Shown: positions 34,954 to 43,717, counted from the stretch's first letter. The stretch is 43,717 bases of DNA from Patescibacteria group bacterium (GCA_030917125.1 JAUPVH010000001.1:1-43717); one strand, 5' to 3'. Made by a program: numbers and translations. The notes: generated by a model from the sequence alone, not told the origin.

Positions 34954-37149
34954 ATGAGTAAGGCCAATTACGATCCCTCGGCAACCGAGGCCAAATGGCG
35001 TGCGGTTTGGGATAAGTCGAAAATATACGCGACGCCAGAAAATCCCAAGCGCCCATATTATAATCTCGTGATGTTCCCATATCCATCGGGCAACTTGCAT
35101 GTTGGGCATTGGTATAATTTTGCGCCAGCCGATACACTCGGACGGTTTGAGCGGATGCGTGGCAAAGATGTATTGCAACCACTCGGCTATGACGCCTTCG
35201 GTTTGCCGGCTGAGAATGCGGCAATTAAAAATGGTATTCCAGCGGATGAGTGGACCGATAAAAATACTGTCAGTTTTTATGAGCAGTACAAAACGCTGGG
35301 TGGGATGTATGACTTAGGTCGCTTGGTAAATACCTCCAAACCAGAGTATTACAGGTGGACGCAATGGTTGTTCTTGCAGCTGTATCATGCCGGTAAAGCG
35401 GTGCGCCGCGATGGCACGGTCAACTGGTGCCCGAGTTGTCAGACCGTGCTCGCCAACGAGCAGGTTGTACATGGTGAGTGCGAACGCTGTGGCACAACAG
35501 TCGAGCGTAAAAATCTCAAGCAATGGTATTTTACGATTACCGATTACGCCGATCGTTTGCTCGATGATTTAGATGGGCTCGATTGGCCGGAACGAGTTAA
35601 GCAACAACAGCGCAACTGGATTAGTCGTAGCGAAGGTGCACGCATCGAGTTTACATTGTATGGCAAAGACGAAACGCTCGAGGTATTTACTACTCGTCCG
35701 GATACCATTTTTGGCGCCACCTTTATGGTCGTCGCACCTGAACATCCTTTGGTTGCAGAGCTCACTACTGACAAGCAGCGCGCTGAAGTTGAGCAGTACC
35801 AGCAGTGGGCTGGCGCTCGTACCGATGTTGATCGTATGGAGGCCAAAGAAAAAACTGGCGTGTTTACTGGCGGCTACGTAGTGAACCCGGCAAATGCCGA
35901 AAAAATCCCGGTGTGGGTGGCAGACTATGTGCTGATGGGCTACGGCACTGGTGCCATTATGGCTGTACCAGCCCATGATGAGCGCGACCATGCTTTCGCG
36001 AAGAAATACAATCTACCGATCATTGAGGTTATTGAGCCGGTAACAGGTAAGCATCAGGATAATCCTGAGCACCGTAAGAGTATTGTGGCCTTGGTGCATA
36101 ATCCGCGTACCGACGAAGTTTTAGTGATTAACTGGGGCGCCAAGCAGGGTGGTCATCTTTTGGTGGGTGGTGGTCGTGAGGCGGATGAAGACATTACCGC
36201 TTGTGCAACTCGAGAAGTGATCGAAGAAACAGGCTATACTGGCCTGAAATATATTGGTCAGACCGGCAAAATCCACCATCATTACTTTGCGCACTCTAAG
36301 GGTAAAGCTCGGCACATCGAAGCTGTTGGAGTGCATTTTGAACTCGTTGATAATGAGAAAATCGAAACCAAACTAGAGCGAGATGAGGTTGGGAAGTTTA
36401 GTGTGGAATGGAAGCCAGCCCGCGAAGTTGAAACGATGCTGCAGGATGAGCTGCATAAATACGTGTTTGATGCGTTCTTGCGACAAAATATTCATGCCGG
36501 CACGGGTGTGATGATTAACTCTGGTAAGTTTGATGGCCTGAAAAGTACCGAGGCAAAAAGCCAGATAGTTGCCTGGCTGCATAAAGGTGGTTTTGGTAAA
36601 GCCACCACCAACTACCGGCTGCGTGATTGGCTGATTTCTCGCCAGCGTTACTGGGGCGCGCCAATTCCGATGATTTACTGCGAAGAATGTGGCGTAGTGC
36701 CGGTACCAGAAAAAGATCTGCCGGTTGTTCTACCAGTTGGGCAGGAGTTCGATAAGACTGGCCGCTCACCATTGCACACGCATCCGGATTACGCAAAAGT
36801 TGACTGTCCGCAGTGCGGCAATGCCGATGCTCGCCGCGAGACGGATACCATGGATACATTCGTAGATTCCAGCTGGTACTTTTTGCGCTACCCAAATCCG
36901 AACTATGACAAGGCGGCGTTTGATCCAGAAGCTGTTAAGAAGTGGCTGCCCGTCGATCGTTACATGGGTGGTGTGGAGCACGCTATTTTACATCTTTTGT
37001 ACTCGCGTTTTATTACTAAGTTCTTGCATGATCAAAAGCTCGTAGCTTTTGATGAGCCATTCACCAAGCTAATTAATCAGGGAATGATTCTTGGCCCAGA
37101 TGGTAATAAAATGAGTAAGTCTAAGGGTAACGTTATTGACCCGCTGTAG
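34954..37149 (+). CDS. leuS: leucyl-tRNA synthetase, N-terminal 731-aa fragment (Rossmann fold, CP1 editing domain with inserted Nudix domain, KMSKS), ending at an in-frame TAG
   Basis: [11 protein letters not shown] (HIGH), [31 protein letters not shown] and KMSKSKGN. The -10 tataat (34941-34946) is 7 nt from the ATG. Confidence 0.9.
   Translation: [731 protein letters not shown]
36034..36504 (+). other. Nudix-hydrolase domain inserted inside the LeuRS editing (CP1) domain
   Basis: About 157 residues lie between LPIIEVI and [12 protein letters not shown], where E. coli and B. subtilis (from memory) have about 13-20. A perfect Nudix box [23 protein letters not shown] (Gx5Ex7REVxEExGY) lies at 36169-36237. 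Confidence 0.8.
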
Positions 37150-37152
37150 TAT

Positions 37153-37815
37153 GTGGAGAAATACGGCGCCGACGCGGTACGTTTGTATCTGATGTTTATG
37201 GGGCCGTGGGAAGATGGTGGTCCGTGGGATCCACAGCGCTTTGAAGGTACGTATCGCTTCTTGCAAAAAGTCTATGCCACGATTTCTGCCGCGTATGAAG
37301 TTCAGGAAATTGATGCTGCTGCCGAAACTACGCTGGATTCTGCACTGCACAAACTGGTTAAGAAAGTTACTGAAGATCTGGAAAACACCCGCTTTAACAC
37401 AGCGATTGCTGCCATGATGGAGTACATTACATTGCTTGGAAAAAGCCAACGCGCTGGTGATGTGTCGGTAGAGTTGTGGCGTGAACACGTACAGACCTTC
37501 GTGCGCCTGATTGCTCCATTTGCACCGTTTTTAGCTGAAGAATTGTGGCAAGAACTTGGCGAACAAGAGAGCGTGCATCTGGAAGCTTGGCCAACGTTTG
37601 ATGAAACAAAAGCACGTGATGAGCTCGCAACGATTGCCGTTCAGGTAAATGGTAAGCTGCGCGGTGAGTTTGTCATGGAGGCCGGCAAGTTGCCAGGCGC
37701 AATCGAAGAGCAGGCTCGTGGCTTGAATGCCGAACACAATTGGACACGCGGTGCACAAGTGGTGAAGGTGATTGTGGTACCAGACCGGCTCGTCAACTTT
37801 GTCGTCGCTCGGTAG
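37153..37815 (+). CDS. leuS: leucyl-tRNA synthetase, C-terminal 220-aa fragment (anticodon-binding and C-terminal domains), same frame as the N-fragment
   Basis: [15 protein letters not shown] follows KMSKS exactly as in intact LeuRS. The GTG at 37153 is one codon after the TAG at 37147-37149. Confidence 0.85.
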   Translation: [220 protein letters not shown]

Positions 37816-38588: not shown

Positions 38589-39350
38589 ATGCAAATCGCA
38601 AATCTTGCCAAAAAACTCGAAGCCGTAGGTCTCACTGAAAAGCAGGCCAAAGTGTATGTTGCCGCTCTATTCTTGGGGCCGGCAGCGGTTCAGCGTATTG
38701 CCGAACAAGCTGAGGTTAACCGAGCTACAACCTACGTAATTTTGGCAGAACTTGCGGATATGGGTCTGGTTTCTGAAACTACCGAAGGTAAAAAGACGGT
38801 ATTTGTGGCTGAACCACCAGATGCAATTGATCGTTATCTCGGAGCAATGGAGAAGGAAATTGACGACCGTAAAGTCCAGCTAAAAGGTGTGATGAAAGAA
38901 CTAAATGAAGTGAATCGCTCTGAAATAGCAGGTGATGCGCCAGTTGTAAGGTTTTTTAAGGGGCCTGAAGCAATACTTGCACTTAGCTCATATCTCAAGC
39001 GTAAGGCGAAGCCAAACGAAGTAGTTTATGGTATGACAAATCTTGATGAACTCGACAAGATGGCACCTGGTTATACCGAAACGAATGCGTTGAAACGCAA
39101 GAAAAAGAAAATTGCTGGTAAGGGTTTTTATTCAGGGTCCAGAGAATTAGTTAGTGACCCAGAGTCGTTACGCGAGACTATCAAGCTTACGGAAGATGTT
39201 AGGGCGGACCTCAATCTATACGAGGAAAGAGCAAGTATAGTTACTTACTCTGGCGATCAGCCAGTAGGTATTGTGATTGAGGGTAAAGAACTCGTATCGG
39301 TTTTACGTCAGTTATTCGACCTGGCGTGGAAAAATCACAAGAAGAAGTAG
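38589..39350 (+). CDS. TrmB-family transcriptional regulator
   Basis: N-terminal winged-helix LEAVGLTEKQAKVYVAALFLGPAAVQRIAEQAEVNRATTYVILAELADMGLV, typical of TrmB. C-terminal effector-like domain. Confidence 0.75.
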   Translation: MQIANLAKKLEAVGLTEKQAKVYVAALFLGPAAVQRIAEQAEVNRATTYVILAELADMGLVSETTEGKKTVFVAEPPDAIDRYLGAMEKEIDDRKVQLKGVMKELNEVNRSEIAGDAPVVRFFKGPEAILALSSYLKRKAKPNEVVYGMTNLDELDKMAPGYTETNALKRKKKKIAGKGFYSGSRELVSDPESLRETIKLTEDVRADLNLYEERASIVTYSGDQPVGIVIEGKELVSVLRQLFDLAWKNHKKK

Positions 39351-39362
39351 TGTTAGTTATTA

Positions 39363-39391
39363 TTGACAAATAAGTAATGCTTGTGTATAAT
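39363..39391 (+). promoter_or_regulatory. consensus promoter with no ORF behind it
   Basis: ttgaca (39363-39368), 17-nt spacer, tataat (39386-39391). Confidence 0.55.
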
Positions 39392-39397
39392 TCGAGC

Positions 39398-39805
39398 GTT
39401 GCTAGCAAAAGCAAGAGGTAAGCCAGTCTTCCTCTGGCTGAGCTGAGACTGGGAGGAAGTTACTTCCAGCCTGCCTAACGGCACAACATGACCCGAAAGG
39501 GGTATTGTGATGGGCGAGTTCACCTGAGCTTCCATCCGAACGTCGGCAACGACATCCAGAGGCTTCGCTCGAAAGCCGAACCTGATCTAGCGTAGAACGC
39601 CGGATCGAAGCATGACCCAAACTGCCAGGTGGCGCAAAAAAGTTGGGCGCGCTTGCTCGACATCCTTGAATTAAGCAGCAAATAACGCAAAAAAGACAGG
39701 AAGAAGAGCATCAAATCGAGCATCGGGGTGACCCCGTAACACGCGGGGTCACCCCTAAACATCTCTATTAAGAACTTATGCAAGACCTTAAACGGGTCTT
39801 TTTTT
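39398..39805 (+). ncRNA. candidate ~400-nt structured RNA of unknown class, bounded by its own promoter and terminator
   Basis: No credible ORF; only antisense low-complexity track ORFs. GNRA-capped hairpins (ccc GAAA ggg, gtcg GCAA cgac). ggaag tta cttcc. A 12-bp perfect hairpin 39725-39736/39744-39755. Terminator aagacc/ggtctt plus a T7 run at 39782-39805. Confidence 0.45.
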
Positions 39806-39946
39806 GTGTGTAATGACGGAAAATAATCTAGGTTACTCATAGTCAGCAAATTGTTGCTGATAGAGTTTATCAACAAATAGGCACTATTTTGCGGAATATA
39901 TGAAACTGTACTGATTGAGAGATAGGAGAAAAAATGCAAATAATAA

Positions 39947-39975
39947 TTGACAATAAGGTATGATATTGCTATAAT
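39947..39975 (+). promoter_or_regulatory. consensus promoter of the GC-rich three-gene operon
   Basis: ttgaca (39947-39952), 17-nt spacer, tataat (39970-39975). Confidence 0.55.
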
Positions 39976-40066
39976 CTCATAGATCTGTCAACCCCGCTTA
40001 GCGCGGGTGTAGATGGATGCAACTTCGCAAATCCAATCCCAATTCCACCCATCAAGGAGTCCCAAC

Positions 40067-40768
40067 GTGTCCAACGACACCAGCAACGAGACCAGCCTGG
40101 CAGTTCCCGCACCATCGCGTCGCGCGCTCGCGCTCGTCGAGATGACCGAGACTGTCCAGGAGCTCATCGACACCCACGGCGTCGAGCTCGACATCCCTGT
40201 CGAGCAGGTCGCCAGCATGGCGGTGGAGCGCAAGCTCTCCGTCGAAGAGGTCGACGCTTTGCTCCTGGCTCGCCAGGACTACGCCGCCCGCTTCCCGGTG
40301 ATGGATCTGCTGCTTCGCAGCGGCTTCACCACCGATCAGATCCATGCGGCCTACGCCTTCGTGGATCAGCATGACCTCGAGCAGGATCGCAAGATCGAGG
40401 CTGCGCCCATCTCGGGCGTGGTCGAGGAGCCCGAGAGTCTGGCCGACCTGGTGCGTCGTTCGACCACCGAGCCGGCCCGTGCCCGCGAGCATGAGGGTGC
40501 GACCGAGATGGACGTGAATCGTCGTCACAAGTACGTGGCGATGATCGCAACCTGGTTCGCAACCTTCGACGTCTTCGACGACCTCGCTGAGGATCTCGAT
40601 GGCGCCATCAGTCTGTTGACCGACCTCGCCGCCAAGGCGCGCGAGGCGCGTTTCGTCAAGGCCGAGATGAACGACCTCGATGTACTCACGAGACTGCTGG
40701 TTCGAGTTCAGGGCCAGGGTATCGAGACGTACGACGGGGTCCTCCGACTCTTCGCCGAAAGGAGCTGA
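40067..40768 (+). CDS. hypothetical acidic protein (GC-rich operon, gene 1)
   Basis: GTG 40067 has an AAGGAG Shine-Dalgarno at 40054-40059 (the track start ATG 40013 is possible but lacks one). Third-position G/C bias selects this frame over the antisense and alternative ORFs. No motif recognised. Confidence 0.5.
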   Translation: MSNDTSNETSLAVPAPSRRALALVEMTETVQELIDTHGVELDIPVEQVASMAVERKLSVEEVDALLLARQDYAARFPVMDLLLRSGFTTDQIHAAYAFVDQHDLEQDRKIEAAPISGVVEEPESLADLVRRSTTEPARAREHEGATEMDVNRRHKYVAMIATWFATFDVFDDLAEDLDGAISLLTDLAAKAREARFVKAEMNDLDVLTRLLVRVQGQGIETYDGVLRLFAERS

Positions 40769-40773
40769 AGAAC

Positions 40774-41874
40774 ATGACGGGAATCAACCCGTTTCTGGTG
40801 CTCGGTCTGAACGTGACGGTGCTGGGGGGATTGTCCGATGAGGACATCCTCCAGCTCGCCAAGAGTCAGTACCGAGCACTCTCGCAGATCCATCACCCCG
40901 ATCGCGGTGGTGATGCCGATCTGTTCGCACTCCTCTCGGATGCCTACGAGTCCCTCCAGGACTCACGGGCCCGTCAGGAGAAGCTCGAGGAGTACCGCAC
41001 CTCTCGTTTGGACCAGCTCACGCTGGTCCAGCAGGAGCTCACGGATCTCGAGCGTCAACGTCGACGAGATAATCGTCGACTTCGCCGACATACCGCCGAC
41101 TTCATGGCGGACTTCGTGCGGTCACAGCACACCGAGACGGCCCAGCCGCTCAACGTGCACGATCTCACGCTGGTCGTGCAGGATCGGCACTCCGACTTCA
41201 TGTCGGGGGCTCTGTCGACCGACGCTGAGCGGAACAAGGCGGAGTTCATCGAGCACTACACTACGCATGGCTTCAAGGTCGTGCGGCGCGTTGGTGGTCA
41301 CGTTTCGGTGGCAGACTTGCAGGTAATGCAGGTGATGCCATCGAGCGACTTCACGCCGGCCCGCTTCAAGCAGTTTGCTGCCGAGTTCACCCACGTCGGT
41401 GCCCGTAAGAAGGCGCCGTACCCCAGCTACAACAGCTGGTACCGGGTGGACCTTGAGTCGACTGAGGCTTACGAGAATCAGTTGCGACAGCTTGAGATTG
41501 AGGCAGAAGCCGAGGGTCGTACCCTCGAGGATGCCCCAATCGATCCGACGTCAGCGCTCTACTGCTACGAAGAGCAGTCGACAGAAGCGACCGACTGGGC
41601 GCTGATTGGCACACTGTCAGACGGCCTCATCGGAACCGACGCCAGGGGCGACGCTGCTCCTGGTGCAGCCATGGAGCGCATGCTCGAGTCGGCTGCCGTG
41701 CCGAATCTCCGCGAGGAGCTCGAGCGCGGTTATAGCTTCGAGCGGTTCCAGTACTACCTGGACCAGCTCGAAGCTGAATTCTCCGAAGATGGTTACCTTG
41801 TGGCCGCGCGCCTTGAGGACGACCAAATTCGGTTCATGCTGGTGGGGAAGATCGTCCCTCATCAGGAACTCTGA
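40774..41874 (+). CDS. J-domain (DnaJ-like) protein with an uncharacterised ~290-aa C-terminal region (GC-rich operon, gene 2)
   Basis: N-terminal INPFLVLGL...LAKSQYRALSQIHHPDRGGDADLFALLSDAYESL carries the HPD tripeptide in a J-domain helix II/III context. No Gly/Phe or zinc-finger DnaJ regions. AAAGGAG Shine-Dalgarno. Starts 5 nt after the gene 1 stop. Confidence 0.75.
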   Translation: MTGINPFLVLGLNVTVLGGLSDEDILQLAKSQYRALSQIHHPDRGGDADLFALLSDAYESLQDSRARQEKLEEYRTSRLDQLTLVQQELTDLERQRRRDNRRLRRHTADFMADFVRSQHTETAQPLNVHDLTLVVQDRHSDFMSGALSTDAERNKAEFIEHYTTHGFKVVRRVGGHVSVADLQVMQVMPSSDFTPARFKQFAAEFTHVGARKKAPYPSYNSWYRVDLESTEAYENQLRQLEIEAEAEGRTLEDAPIDPTSALYCYEEQSTEATDWALIGTLSDGLIGTDARGDAAPGAAMERMLESAAVPNLREELERGYSFERFQYYLDQLEAEFSEDGYLVAARLEDDQIRFMLVGKIVPHQEL

Positions 41875-41894
41875 GACACAACAAGGAGGACCAA

Positions 41895-42182
41895 GTGGGA
41901 CGAACCCCGCGACGCACCCCCACAAAGGAGGAGCTCGACAAGTGGGAGCAGCTGCTGGCCGGCGACGGCCTGGCAGCAATCCCCGACGAGCACCCTGATG
42001 AAGGGGAACCACCAACCGAGTTCGAAGTCGGTCTCGGCTCCGCGTCAGCTCCCCCTGACGATGAGGAGTCCGAGGCTCTCGAACTGGGTGCGGATCTGCC
42101 CGATGGCATGGACGGTGAGGACGAACTCGTGGATGAACACGAGGGAGACCTCCACGCCTACATCATCGTGGACGAGGGCTGA
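41895..42182 (+). CDS. hypothetical highly acidic protein, 95 aa (GC-rich operon, gene 3)
   Basis: GTG start with an AAGGAGG Shine-Dalgarno at 41883-41889. D/E-rich sequence. The terminator follows. Confidence 0.5.
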   Translation: MGRTPRRTPTKEELDKWEQLLAGDGLAAIPDEHPDEGEPPTEFEVGLGSASAPPDDEESEALELGADLPDGMDGEDELVDEHEGDLHAYIIVDEG

Positions 42183-42205
42183 GCTTTCGAGTTCGGCTTC
42201 TCAAG

Positions 42206-42236
42206 CGGCCAGCGCATGCGCTGGCCGTTACTTTTT
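42206..42236 (+). terminator. intrinsic terminator of the three-gene operon
   Basis: cggccagcg catg cgctggccg (9-bp stem) followed by ttacttttt. Confidence 0.7.
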
Positions 42237-42409
42237 ACTGACGTACTCTGACGCATAATTAAGCTATCGATAATAAAATCTGACAAATAAATGCACTTTT
42301 TCATGCTGAAATTCAGTTTATTTATAGTTAAAATAACAGTTTTTATACGAAAATCTACAGATACATAGCTAGTTTTCAGCAAAAAATCATAATAAATTGA
42401 CAATAAGTA

Positions 42410-42438
42410 TTGACAAAAAATATAGCATATGCTACTAT
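42410..42438 (+). promoter_or_regulatory. promoter with an operator-like perfect palindrome in the spacer
   Basis: ttgaca (42410-42415; a second ttgaca at 42397-42402), 17-nt spacer, tactat (42433-42438). The 12-bp palindrome tagcatatgcta lies at 42423-42434. Confidence 0.45.
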
Positions 42439-42467
42439 ATCATCATTGTGAATTTCGTCAGGAGTTC

Positions 42468-42524
42468 ATGACAAAAAAGAACCTTTACTTTAGCTGGCTG
42501 GTGGTCATATTTTTGTGCGAGTAA
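42468..42524 (+). CDS. 18-codon upstream ORF / leader peptide MTKKNLYFSWLVVIFLCE
   Basis: AGGAG at 42460-42464, 3 nt before the ATG. The ORF runs through the 5' arm of the start-codon-sequestering hairpin. Hydrophobic peptide. Confidence 0.35.
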   Translation: MTKKNLYFSWLVVIFLCE

Positions 42525-42551
42525 CATATATCGCCTAAAAATATGACCACC
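42500..42551 (+). promoter_or_regulatory. 15-bp perfect hairpin sequestering the start codon of ORF 42543..42776
   Basis: ggtggtcatattttt (42500-42514) pairs with aaaaatatgaccacc (42537-42551). The ATG at 42543-42545 lies inside the 3' arm, and no Shine-Dalgarno precedes it. Confidence 0.55.
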
Positions 42552-42776
42552 ACATGCAACAGCATCACCCATGTCCATCCCCGGGCCCACCAGCCCCTCA
42601 ACAGGTACTGTGTCCACTGCGGTCGTCTCGGCCGAGCTCCGGAGTGCGCGAGCTGCCGTGAGGCCGCAACAGAGCCGAAGGAGGTGGACGACTACACGGG
42701 CTTCATCATCACCGACGACGGCGACGAGATCGGCCTGATCTCCGACCCGTACCGAGAGTGCATGGAGTTGGTGTAG
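42543..42776 (+). CDS. hypothetical small zinc-ribbon protein, 77 aa (GC-rich cassette)
   Basis: CVHC...CASC cysteine pairs, acidic C-terminus, G/C third-position bias. Confidence 0.5.
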   Translation: MTTTCNSITHVHPRAHQPLNRYCVHCGRLGRAPECASCREAATEPKEVDDYTGFIITDDGDEIGLISDPYRECMELV

Positions 42777-43717
42777 TCACTATCGAATAAGATTCGGGGT
42801 ACTTTGGTAGTGCCTGGCAACAGAAGTTGATCGGAGAGAAAAAGAATCCGTGACACATTAACCCGTCAGTGAAGACGTAAACCCCGAGCCAGTGAGATGT
42901 GGCTTTCAAGCGCGATTCCCGTGCAGCTCATACCCCTTCTTGGGGCAGATTACCTGCTCCAAGAAGGAGCAGTCCGAGGATAGTTATCCTCGCTGATGAG
43001 TCCTGATAGGACGAAACTGCTTTGAAAACTTAGGTAATCCCACGCTGGCTGTTATGCCACACGAGCGTATGTGCGCATTGCCTATCAATATTTTTCAAAC
43101 ACCACACATCAGTTTTTAGTTCTTTTAAACCTGGAAGCCTATACTTCCAGCGCGGCGTAGGCGGCGTTGTTCCTCGAGGGCAGTGCTCGCTCGCGTCGCG
43201 CCGGGAGTATAGCTTCCAAAGTACAAGGGCATCGAAAGCCATTCCTCTCTCCTCTCCAGGTGAGTAGGTGTCCTGCTGGGTCGAGTTCGTCTCGACCCAG
43301 CGAATTCGCTAACCGTTGACCCGCGTACGAATGCGGGGGCCTTTTGAAGCGAGAGCTACGCAGTTGCGTCCTCGAGTGAAACAGGCTGAGCCCATGCGTG
43401 TGGGCTTGCTGGGAGATAAAATTGGTAAAACTGCGCCTGCGTCGGTAACGACGACACCCCAAAGGGTGACCACGAAAGTGGTGGGAAGTAAACAAAGGTA
43501 GAAAAGGGGACCCCAACGGTTATAATGCGGTATTGTCTTCCCCTTTGGTCAGACCTTGAAAAAGTCTGGTTCTATGAAAGGACGATGCCGAGCTCGCGCG
43601 ACTTCCACACCCTTCACCCTTCCTCTTCGTGGAGGTCGCTGCGCGCCGGGAGTGCCGCTTGTGGTTTCTAAGGCTTCGGTCTTGATCACTTGCGTCCACA
43701 CTGTGGGGTAATAGCAC
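42777..43717 (+). other. ORF-poor, hairpin-dense GC-rich region (candidate large structured RNA or RNAs), truncated by the window end
   Basis: The only track ORFs here are low-complexity and Arg/Ser/Pro-rich. Long-range pair tcggggt (42793-42799) with accccga (42880-42886). Hairpins at 43021-43099, 43133-43217, 43276-43300, 43320-43345 (terminator-like) and about 43591-43650. CU-rich tracts at 43243-43257 and 43607-43628. Confidence 0.4.
42969..43020 (+). ncRNA. type III hammerhead self-cleaving ribozyme
   Basis: gcagUC / cgaggat-aguu-auccucg (stem I) / CUGAUGA / gucc-ugaua-ggac (stem II) / GAAA / cugc (stem III, open). All invariant core positions are present. The predicted cleavage site is after C42974. 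Confidence 0.8.

What the first reader, a model, noticed from the sequence alone, without database searches (positions are those of the whole stretch)
42969..43020. Complete type III hammerhead ribozyme in a bacterial chromosome, downstream of the regulated small ORF
The + strand reads 5'-gcagUC|cgaggat aguu auccucg CUGAUGA gucc ugaua ggac GAAA cugc-3'. Stem I is 42975-42992 (7 bp, closed by loop AGUU). The core C3-A9 CUGAUGA is 42993-42999. Stem II is 43000-43012 (4 bp, G10.1:C11.1 present, loop UGAUA). G12A13A14 plus A15.1 are 43013-43016. Stem III is gcag(u)/(a)cugc, extendable to agcagu/acugcu plus G-U pairs, and is open-ended. The cleavage nucleotide C17 is 42974. Every invariant nucleotide and all three helices are in the canonical order, which is very unlikely by chance in 87 kb of two-strand sequence. 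Cleavage would sever the mRNA of ORF 42543..42776 from the downstream hairpin-rich RNA and give that RNA a defined 5'-OH end at 42975. Bacterial hammerheads are known mainly from phage or mobile contexts. This one sits in a GC-rich, apparently acquired segment next to core genes of a putative CPR organism, so it may mark an RNA-processing-dependent element of unknown function.
Basis: seen in the sequence. Interest (0 to 1): 0.85.

Follow-up and report, generated by a model that had tools for sequence, protein, structure and literature searches.

The report
Hammerhead ribozyme upstream of tmRNA gene
This is a genuine, evolutionarily conserved self-cleaving hammerhead ribozyme in a Patescibacteria (CPR) chromosome; it sits inside a long composite transcript that ends in the tmRNA gene, and most likely cuts a small-protein mRNA away from the structured RNAs downstream.

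Summary
Window 42967-43022 (+) matches Rfam Hammerhead_3 over the full model, at 51.3 bits against a gathering score of 48.5 (E = 1.4e-8).

Twelve sequence-distinct copies from related Patescibacteria/Saccharimonadales contigs keep the catalytic core invariant. Thirteen of 18 stem pairs show compensatory changes.

The ribozyme is not a stray. It lies in one predicted transcription unit, in this order:
- a sigma-70 promoter (42410-42438)
- a leader with a hairpin that sequesters the start codon
- a 77-aa ORF
- a conserved 3' UTR and a 14-bp hairpin
- the hammerhead
- conserved hairpins and a large structured RNA with no Rfam family

The contig ends inside that RNA. A 99.8%-identical contig shows the unit continuing through two small ORFs into ssrA (tmRNA). 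In two distant relatives the ribozyme lies only 92 and 164 nt upstream of tmRNA, with no ORF between.

Its architecture matches type III hammerheads that are common, often in several copies, in phage contigs.

Best reading: a co-transcriptional processing site that separates the mRNA from the ncRNA/tmRNA precursor. Cleavage itself is untested. It is a new member of a known class in a context I could not find described.

The parts
42410..42438 (+). Predicted sigma-70 promoter of the unit (TTGACA, 17 nt, TACTAT, with a TG extension)
   Evidence: L003 3539-3567; L003 is 99.8% identical to the window, offset 38871. It is the strongest + strand promoter-like site between the upstream terminator and tmRNA; two weaker + strand matches exist, one at window 43499-43526. 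Equivalent promoters occur in L036, L075 and L026.
42468..42524 (+). 18-codon leader ORF that overlaps the 5' arm of the start-codon hairpin
   Evidence: Read from the sequence. AGGAG lies 4 nt upstream of the ATG. Comparable short leader ORFs are seen in L011 and L033. Translation is not shown.
42499..42552 (+). 22-bp hairpin that sequesters the ATG of the 77-aa ORF
   Evidence: inverted repeat I2 (91% complementary). An analogous ATG-sequestering hairpin is present in L011, L026, L033 and L074.
42543..42776 (+). 77-aa ORF with a CxxC...CxxC pattern (zinc-ribbon-like) and 63% GC
   Evidence: 64% identity to the L033 66-aa ORF. The family is tiny: 3 representatives among 1.84 billion proteins. 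No Pfam, PHROG, NCBIfam or PADLOC match.
42777..42934 (+). Conserved 3' UTR ('RNA-U'), including the motif GGCAACAGAAG (42816-42826) and the hairpin 42886-42906
   Evidence: Alignment of 8 lineages. Among all fetched loci the 11-mer occurs only here and in tmRNA.
42935..42967 (+). 14-bp hairpin P0, which abuts stem III directly
   Evidence: inverted repeat I12. It is part of the minimum-free-energy fold of 42930-43025. RNAalifold on 8 lineages recovers it, with 5 pairs changed on both sides.
42967..43022 (+). Type III hammerhead ribozyme; predicted cleavage between C42974 and C42975
   Evidence: Rfam RF00008, 51.3 bits against a gathering score of 48.5. Covariation in 12 variants. The own covariance model R1 scores it at 75.6 bits.
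43033..43082 (+). Conserved hairpin D1, just downstream of the ribozyme
   Evidence: RNAalifold on 7 lineages, with compensatory pairs. Also present in L033, L036 and L074.
43132..43218 (+). Long bulged stem. In L036 this stem abuts the tmRNA 5' end directly.
43219..43717 (+). Remainder of a large structured RNA, cut off by the contig end. In L003 it runs about 220 nt further.
   Evidence: The fold of 42975-43717 has z = -7.39. Hairpins are swapped with compensatory sequence in L002. The 3' domain is conserved. No Rfam family even at E <= 10.

Best explanation
The feature is a cis-acting, self-cleaving type III hammerhead ribozyme. It serves as an internal processing site of a long composite transcript.

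Proposed sequence of events:
1. Transcription starts at the promoter at 42410-42438.
2. It runs through a leader, the 77-aa ORF, a conserved 3' UTR and hairpin P0.
3. It then crosses the ribozyme and continues into conserved hairpins and a large structured RNA.
4. In complete copies of the locus it continues through two small ORFs into ssrA (tmRNA) and a terminator.
5. Once the 3' strand of stem III (43016-43022) has been made, the ribozyme folds and cleaves between C42974 and C42975 by internal transesterification.

Products:
- The upstream mRNA ends in a 2',3'-cyclic phosphate, 7 nt after the 14-bp P0 hairpin. That end should resist 3' exonucleases.
- The downstream RNA starts with a 5'-OH and the compact ribozyme body. 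That end is a poor substrate for 5'-end-dependent decay.

Cleavage thereby uncouples the translation, decay and folding of the mRNA from those of the ncRNA/tmRNA precursor. RNase P would then free the tmRNA 5' end.

Shown computationally: ribozyme identity, conservation and covariation; the order of modules; promoter and terminator predictions.
Inferred: cleavage in vivo, the nature of the ends, and the consequences for stability.
For: Identity:
- Rfam full-length hit above the gathering score.
- The minimum-free-energy fold is the hammerhead, with P0 stacked on stem III.

Selection:
- Twelve distinct variants keep C3-A9, G12-A14, A15.1:U16.1 and C17 invariant.
- 94.9% of stem cells are paired.
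- Thirteen of 18 pairs changed on both sides.
- 0 of 500 shuffles reach the observed values, and slid controls give only 30-42% pairing.

One transcription unit:
- In L003 the strongest + strand promoter-like site (10 of 12, TG-extended) lies upstream of the 77-aa ORF, and there is no + strand terminator between it and tmRNA. Two weaker + strand matches exist, including L003 4628-4655 (see evidence against).
- In L026 the next strong + strand terminator lies directly after tmRNA.
- The last ORF stops 9-10 nt before the tmRNA 5' end in L003, L011, L026, L029 and L035.

Link to tmRNA:
- tmRNA follows the ribozyme on the same strand in L003, L011, L012, L026, L029/L030, L035, L036 and L075.
- In L036 and L075 the gap is only 164 and 92 nt, with no ORF between.

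Precedent:
- Bacterial and phage hammerheads lie between genes of polycistronic RNAs and cleave in vitro (PMC3088659).
- The same 55-nt architecture occurs in 36 IMG/VR contigs, often 3-5 times per contig.
- A second copy in L036 sits between a GC-rich 73-aa ORF and the ATG of an ABC-transporter gene. This is the same 'small ORF | ribozyme | downstream gene' logic.
Against: - No experimental or transcriptomic evidence of cleavage was available.
- In the window copy both loops differ from the family norm (L1 AGUU and L2 UGAUA, against UGUGU and AAAA in most relatives and phage copies). The loop-loop contact needed for fast cleavage could therefore be weakened.
- L033/L034 and L037 have the ribozyme but no tmRNA within the fetched span. 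The tmRNA link is therefore frequent but not obligatory.
- A promoter-like site (TAGAAA, 16 nt, TATAAT) inside the large RNA (L003 4628-4655, equal to window 43499-43526) could drive the downstream ORFs and tmRNA independently in this lineage.
- Promoter and terminator calls are simple consensus scans.
Confidence: 0.62

Rival explanations
1. The cut exists mainly for the upstream product. The ribozyme replaces a terminator and gives the small-ORF mRNA plus its conserved 3' UTR (RNA-U) a defined, hairpin-capped 3' end. What lies downstream is incidental.
For: P0 abuts the cleavage site and is conserved with 5 compensatory pairs. RNA-U is conserved from the window to L036 and L074. In L033 almost nothing functional follows the ribozyme: about 130 nt, then the next gene's promoter. 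There is no intrinsic terminator between the ORF and the ribozyme.
Against: D1 and the long stem immediately downstream are equally conserved. In L075 no ORF precedes the ribozyme, only a long non-coding stretch, yet tmRNA follows at 92 nt. This reading overlaps with the best explanation rather than excluding it.
Confidence: 0.15
2. It is a decaying relic of a phage-derived cassette: a hammerhead of the phage type that no longer has a role for the cell.
For: The architecture is the same as in many IMG/VR phage contigs. Neighbouring ORFs are GC-rich (62-63% against 50% for the window) and vary between lineages. The ORF next to ssrA belongs to phage family PHROG 30542 and is Crn4-like. The window copy has atypical loops.
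Against: The core is invariant and 13 of 18 stem pairs show compensatory change. This holds across lineages whose flanking TrmB protein has diverged to 54% identity, which indicates purifying selection on the fold. The position is syntenic rather than scattered.
Confidence: 0.1
3. It is a conditional switch. The 3' arm of P0 (CUGCUC) can pair with the 5' strand of stem III (GAGCAG) instead. Formation of the active ribozyme, and hence expression of what lies downstream, would then be regulated.
For: Stem III (GCAGU/ACUGC) and the top of P0 are invariant in the syntenic window-type variants, while stem I covaries freely. When only the upstream part is folded, RNAalifold chooses the alternative hairpin.
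Against: With the full ribozyme present, P0 plus the hammerhead is both the minimum-free-energy and the centroid structure. In L075 and L036 stem III has a different sequence and the P0-like hairpin carries no matching duplicate. No ligand-binding domain is evident.
Confidence: 0.08
4. The ribozyme belongs to an excised, possibly circularised RNA, like a retrozyme or viroid-like RNA.
For: In L037 two hammerheads in the same orientation flank a structured RNA of about 780 nt. That arrangement would yield 5'-OH and 2',3'-cyclic-phosphate ends, which an RtcB-type ligase could join (established enzymology).
Against: The window and its close relatives have only one hammerhead per locus, and no other self-cleaving ribozyme family is found. 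An RNase P cut at tmRNA would leave a 3'-OH, which is not ligatable to a 5'-OH. There is no reverse transcriptase, no direct repeats and no multicopy distribution in the window.
Confidence: 0.05

Closest known systems
Rfam RF00008, hammerhead ribozyme type III
   Same: Full-length match above the curated threshold. Canonical core, a C17 cleavage site, an open stem III, and stems I and II closed by loops.
   Different: It is chromosomal, in a Patescibacteria genome, and single-copy in the window. It sits between an mRNA and structured RNAs rather than in a viroid or satellite replicon.
Hammerheads between genes of phage and prophage polycistronic transcripts (Perreault et al. 2011, PMC3088659)
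   Same: It lies between cistrons of one predicted transcript. It shares the compact 55-nt type III architecture (stem I of 6-7 bp with a UGUGU-like loop; stem II GUCC-AAAA-GGAC) found 65 times in 36 IMG/VR contigs. Neighbouring ORFs have phage affinities.
   Different: No prophage backbone is evident in the window or in the fetched relatives; an integrase was not specifically searched for. The position is fixed and syntenic across divergent genomes. What it separates is an mRNA from non-coding RNAs and tmRNA, not two phage genes.
tmRNA precursor maturation by RNase P and 3' exonucleases (established knowledge from E. coli; from memory)
   Same: Here too tmRNA must be released from a longer precursor. 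An RNase P-type cut is required at its 5' end.
   Different: The precursor is predicted to be kilobases long and to carry ORFs and a self-cleaving ribozyme upstream. I know of no described tmRNA precursor with a ribozyme, and the literature searches found none.
HDV-like 'theta' ribozymes next to phage tRNAs
   Same: A small self-cleaving ribozyme placed next to a tRNA-like RNA, thought to help define its end.
   Different: A different ribozyme class, on the other side of the RNA (3' of tRNAs), and in phage genomes.
Retrozymes and viroid-like circular RNAs with hammerheads
   Same: Type III hammerhead. The relative L037 has two copies flanking an RNA.
   Different: The window has one copy, no repeats and no evidence of circles. 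See the rival explanation.

Membership tests
Hammerhead ribozyme, type III (RF00008) | Catalytic core C3-U4-G5-A6-N7-G8-A9 between stems I and II | tested here: met
   CUGAUGA at 42993-42999. Invariant in 12 variants.
Hammerhead ribozyme, type III (RF00008) | G12-A13-A14, the A15.1:U16.1 pair, and a non-G nucleotide 17 at the cleavage site | tested here: met
   GAA at 43013-43015. A43016 pairs with U42973. C17 is at 42974. All are invariant in the homologues.
Hammerhead ribozyme, type III (RF00008) | Three helices in type III topology: stem III open, stems I and II capped by loops | tested here: met
   The minimum-free-energy fold of the 56-mer. The Rfam alignment. RNAalifold recovers all three helices.
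Hammerhead ribozyme, type III (RF00008) | Covariance-model score at or above the curated gathering score | tested here: met
   51.3 bits against 48.5. Relatives score 49.1-51.3. The copies in L026 and L033/L034 fall below the threshold but are clear with model R1. L036, L074 and L075 were found only with R1 and were never scanned against Rfam.
Hammerhead ribozyme, type III (RF00008) | Helices maintained by compensatory substitutions in homologues | tested here: met
   13 of 18 pairs changed on both sides, 94.9% paired, 0 of 500 shuffles.
Hammerhead ribozyme, type III (RF00008) | Loop I - loop II tertiary contact that gives fast cleavage at physiological Mg2+ | tested here: inconclusive
   Most relatives and phage copies have L1 UGUGU or UGAGU with L2 AAAA. 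The window has L1 AGUU and L2 UGAUA. Whether these still dock cannot be judged from sequence.
Hammerhead ribozyme, type III (RF00008) | Site-specific self-cleavage giving 2',3'-cyclic-phosphate and 5'-OH ends | not testable with these tools
   Needs in vitro transcription or end-specific RNA sequencing.
Phage-type tandem hammerheads in polycistronic RNAs | Several ribozymes flanking genes, in a prophage context near an integrase | tested here: not met
   Only one ribozyme in the window and in each close relative. The gene tables of the fetched loci list no integrase family near the locus; no dedicated integrase search was run. The ribozyme architecture itself does match.
Retrozyme or viroid-like circular RNA | Two ribozymes in direct orientation bounding a unit-length RNA | tested here: not met
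   One copy in the window. The feature is met only in the distant relative L037.

The most novel reading that the evidence does not exclude
In this Saccharimonadales-related clade a hammerhead ribozyme would be a conserved, functional component of ssrA (tmRNA) biogenesis. The tmRNA gene has no promoter of its own and is made as the tail of a long chimeric transcript. The ribozyme defines the 5' boundary of the tmRNA-precursor leader. In the window lineage that leader has grown into an undescribed ornate RNA of about 0.9 kb. This would be the first case of a small self-cleaving ribozyme wired into the maturation of a universal housekeeping RNA in bacteria. It would also give a concrete cellular role to a bacterial hammerhead.
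Probability: 0.3. Interest if true: 0.78.

Novelty: new member of a known kind. Interest (0 to 1): 0.55.

Why it matters
Hundreds of hammerheads are known in bacteria and phages, but their biological roles remain largely unclear (PMC3088659). Here the ribozyme is under clear purifying selection at a fixed chromosomal position, upstream of the tmRNA gene, in reduced-genome CPR bacteria.

This gives a well-defined system for asking what a bacterial hammerhead does. The candidate roles are insulating an mRNA from a structured RNA, defining RNA ends, or helping tmRNA maturation.

The finding also draws attention to an RNA-dense locus: RNA-T, RNA-U, D1 with the long stem, and a large structured RNA. 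None of these matches an Rfam family.

Tried and rejected
- **Rfam at E <= 10.** I searched window 41500-43717 and L003 3500-5800 to identify the downstream RNA. Nothing beyond the hammerhead and tmRNA was found.
- **Phage genome search.** blastn of 42400-43717 against INPHARED phages gave no match.
- **Exact-pattern scans for the ribozyme flank and two conserved blocks of the large RNA.**
  - IMG/VR gave 0 hits.
  - GTDB genomes gave 7 hits. Six are a coding coincidence in DnaE (the motif NKSHAACY). One is genuine: L019, a 1.9-kb contig binned as 'Gammaproteobacteria', which is probably a misbinning.
  - JGI metagenomes gave 0 hits, then 6 unrelated hits.
- **Protein anchors.** The 77-aa and 88-aa ORFs have only 1-3 relatives. 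I therefore reached the homologous loci through the TrmB-like neighbour.
- **RNA-U as a tmRNA fragment.** I tested this because of a shared 11-mer. nhmmer with a tmRNA profile finds no significant similarity there, so I dropped the idea and kept only the 11-mer as an observation.
- **Large non-coding stretches upstream of the ribozyme in L075 and L037.** I tested whether they are homologous to the window's large RNA. nhmmer does not support this.
- **ARAGORN.** It missed most of these tmRNAs. I used Rfam and nhmmer instead.
- **Defence or toxin-antitoxin reading of the neighbouring ORFs.** PADLOC and NCBIfam gave nothing, apart from the Crn4-like protein next to ssrA.

Full report
**1. The observation**

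- Rfam 15 finds two families in the 43.7-kb window: one tRNA, and Hammerhead_3 (RF00008) at 42967-43022 on the + strand.
- The hammerhead hit scores 51.3 bits against a gathering score of 48.5, with E = 1.4e-8, and covers the full model (again).
- The 56-mer folds into the hammerhead as its minimum-free-energy and centroid structure (z = -3.96).
- The core letters alone would occur about 0.6 times by chance in the window. The weight of evidence therefore lies in the complete model and in the homologues.

**2. Where the window comes from, and what lies beyond its end**

- The TrmB-like protein at 38589-39350 is identical to an NCBI protein from a Patescibacteria MAG. The longest contig carrying that protein is 43,717 nt, so the window is the whole contig. 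More distant relatives are labelled Candidatus Saccharimonadales.
- An exact-protein look-up with the 366-aa ORF (40774-41874) returned ten contigs.
- One of them, L003, is 99.8% identical to the window over 4,846 nt, up to the window's last base, and extends 1,257 nt further.
- L003 shows that the hairpin-rich RNA continues about 220 nt past the window end. It is followed by an 88-aa ORF, then a 121-aa ORF, and then tmRNA, only 10 nt after the second ORF's stop codon. The tmRNA hit is RF00023, 110 bits.

**3. Conservation of the ribozyme**

I reached syntenic loci through the 88-aa ORF and through TrmB homologues of 92% down to 52% identity. These are L011, L012, L019, L026, L029-L037, L074 and L075.

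- A hammerhead is present in every lineage examined, downstream of the TrmB-like gene.
- Rfam scores the closer relatives at 49.1-51.3 bits. L026 and L033/L034 returned no hit at the gathering score.
- My own covariance model R1 scores all copies at 41-82 bits.

In an alignment of 12 distinct copies:

| Measure | Result |
|---|---|
| Core and cleavage-site nucleotides | invariant |
| Stem cells forming standard pairs | 94.9% |
| Pairs changed on both sides | 13 of 18 |
| Shuffles reaching the observed values | 0 of 500 |
| Pairing when the 3' partners are slid | 30-42% |

Examples of compensatory change:
- Stem I reads CGAGGAU/AUCCUCG, CUGGAGU/ACUCCAG or CCAGGA/UCCUGG.
- Stem II reads GUCC/GGAC, GUUC/GAAC or GUCU/AGAC.
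- Stem III reads GAUAGU/ACUAUC in L075.

This is the signature of selection on the fold, so the ribozyme is real and maintained.

**4. Anatomy of the unit in the window**

The elements occur in this order:

1. **Upstream terminator.** A terminator at 42206-42227 ends the preceding GC-rich three-gene cassette.
2. **Promoter.** An AT-rich spacer carries the strongest + strand promoter-like site before tmRNA: TTGACA, 17 nt, TACTAT with a TG extension, at 42410-42438. Two weaker + strand matches exist; the one inside the large RNA is discussed in section 7.
3. **Leader.** An 18-codon leader ORF is followed by a 22-bp hairpin that buries the ATG of the 77-aa ORF. The same device is seen in L011, L026, L033 and L074.
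4. **77-aa ORF.** It is a real gene, 64% identical to its L033 homologue, but belongs to a tiny family.
5. **3' UTR ('RNA-U', 42777-42934).** It is conserved across lineages.
6. **Hairpin P0 (42935-42967).** This 14-bp hairpin abuts stem III. It is part of the minimum-free-energy fold and has five pairs changed on both sides among eight lineages.
7. **The hammerhead.**
8. **Downstream structured RNA.**
   - RNAalifold recovers the conserved hairpin D1 (43033-43082) and a long bulged stem (43132-43218).
   - The rest is a large RNA (fold z = -7.4 for 42975-43717).
   - Its middle domain differs between lineages, partly by hairpins swapped for other hairpins.
   - Its 3' domain is highly conserved.
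   - It matches no Rfam family.

**5. The link to tmRNA**

- tmRNA follows the ribozyme on the same strand in eight sets of loci: L003, L011, L012, L026, L029/L030, L035, L036 and L075.
- In the window-type lineages 1.6-2.0 kb lies between them. That interval holds the large RNA and two or three small ORFs that differ between lineages.
- The last ORF always stops 9-10 nt before the tmRNA 5' end. That leaves no intergenic room for a promoter, and the scan finds none inside the last ORF.
- In L026 the next strong + strand terminator lies directly after tmRNA.
- In L036 (TrmB 63% identical) only D1 and the long stem separate ribozyme and tmRNA, a gap of 164 nt. The long stem abuts the tmRNA 5' end.
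- In L075 (TrmB 54% identical) the gap is 92 nt.
- No + strand terminator intervenes in L075. In L036 only one weak match, inside the upstream ORF, does.
- The association is not universal. L033/L034 and L037 have the ribozyme but no tmRNA within the fetched span. L074 has only a tmRNA remnant reduced to the acceptor and T arms.

**6. Relationship to known hammerheads**

- The string CUGAUGAGUCCAAAAGGACGAAA, which is the core plus stem II of most relatives, occurs in 36 IMG/VR viral contigs.
- Model R1 finds 65 copies there, often 3-5 per contig. They share the same 55-nt type III design, with a UGUGU or UGAGU loop I and an AAAA loop II.
- This is the arrangement Perreault et al. described for prophage polycistronic RNAs and showed to cleave in vitro (PMC3088659).
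- The window copy is a slightly derived member, with loops AGUU and UGAUA.
- A second copy in L036 lies between a GC-rich 73-aa membrane ORF and the ATG of an ABC-transporter gene.
- L037 has two copies with an extended stem II, flanking an RNA of about 780 nt.
- The ribozyme is therefore a reusable 'cut here' module in these genomes.

**7. Mechanism proposed**

Co-transcriptional self-cleavage between C42974 and C42975 would have two effects.

- The small-ORF mRNA and RNA-U would end in P0, a 7-nt tail and a 2',3'-cyclic phosphate.
- The downstream RNA would start with a 5'-OH and the folded ribozyme body.

This would uncouple the two halves in decay, translation and folding. RNase P would complete tmRNA 5' maturation.

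The chemistry and the expected resistance of such ends follow from established knowledge of hammerheads and bacterial RNases. Neither was measured here.

Two points weaken the account for this particular lineage: the atypical loops, and a promoter-like site inside the large RNA at window 43499-43526.

**8. Rivals**

- **A relic of a phage cassette.** This is contradicted by the covariation.
- **A P0/stem III conformational switch.** It is not supported by the minimum-free-energy fold or by L036 and L075.
- **RNA excision and circularisation.** This is conceivable only where two copies exist (L037).
- **A role centred on the upstream product.** This overlaps with the main explanation.

**9. Novelty**

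The ribozyme class and its placement between cistrons are known. Not found in the searchable literature are:

- a hammerhead in Patescibacteria or Saccharibacteria;
- its conserved position in the transcription unit of ssrA;
- the accompanying set of unclassified structured RNAs.

I file it as a new member of a known kind, with a context that deserves follow-up.

**10. Verdict**

| Question | Result |
|---|---|
| Observation | confirmed |
| Confidence in ribozyme identity | about 0.95 |
| Confidence in the processing-site mechanism | about 0.6 |
| Interest | 0.55 |

Noticed in passing
window 39364-39806 (+): A structured RNA of about 400 nt lies directly after the TrmB-like gene. It has its own perfect sigma-70 promoter (TTGACA, 17 nt, TATAAT) and an intrinsic terminator. 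Counterparts with the same placement are visible in L026, L033, L036, L037, L074 and L075. No Rfam family matches at the gathering score.
   Followed up: partly
window 43023-43717, continuing in L003 4152-4935: A large structured RNA (about 0.9 kb including the ribozyme) with conserved 5' and 3' domains and an exchangeable middle domain. It matches no Rfam family even at E <= 10. It may be an undescribed ornate RNA of this clade.
   Followed up: partly
window 37147-37149: An in-frame TAG splits the leucyl-tRNA synthetase gene (34954-37815), which also carries a NUDIX-domain insertion. The near-identical contig L001 has CAG at this codon. The cause is either an assembly or sequencing error or a nonsense variant.
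   Followed up: partly
window 39947-42227: A three-gene cassette at 62% GC (251 aa, a 366-aa protein with a weak J-domain match, and 95 aa) has its own promoter and terminator. It is present only in the window lineage and is absent from the syntenic position in L011, L026, L029, L033 and L035. The 13-mer AATTGACAATAAG is repeated at 39945 and 42395, at both borders.
   Followed up: partly
L003 5356-5721 (beyond the window end): The 121-aa ORF that ends 10 nt before tmRNA is a homologue of the CRISPR ring nuclease Crn4b (PDB 9r7b, E = 3.7e-7; PADLOC Unk_01, E = 8.9e-22; PHROG 30542). Relatives occur in Paenibacillus, Bacillus and Microcystis phages and in archaeal viruses.
   Followed up: partly
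window 42816-42826 and the tmRNA genes of L003, L011, L026, L029, L030, L035 and L036 (the partial tmRNA of L012 also carries it): Among all fetched loci (about 330 kb of related sequence) the 11-mer GGCAACAGAAG occurs only in the conserved 3' UTR upstream of the ribozyme and inside tmRNA. Profile search finds no wider similarity between the two RNAs.
   Followed up: partly
L037 8286-8369 and 9146-9228: Two hammerheads, each with stem II extended by about 33 nt, flank a structured RNA of about 780 nt in a distant relative. This arrangement could release an RNA with ligatable ends.
   Followed up: no
L074 4226-4275: A tmRNA-like element reduced to the acceptor stem and T arm (GGGGCCGAUUGGUAUCACGAGGGGGGGUUCGAUUCCCCCCGGCUCCACCA) sits where other lineages have full-length tmRNA.
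   Followed up: no
L036 600-654 (-): A second hammerhead in the same genome lies between a GC-rich 73-aa membrane ORF, which has its own strong promoter, and the start codon of an ABC-transporter gene.
   Followed up: partly
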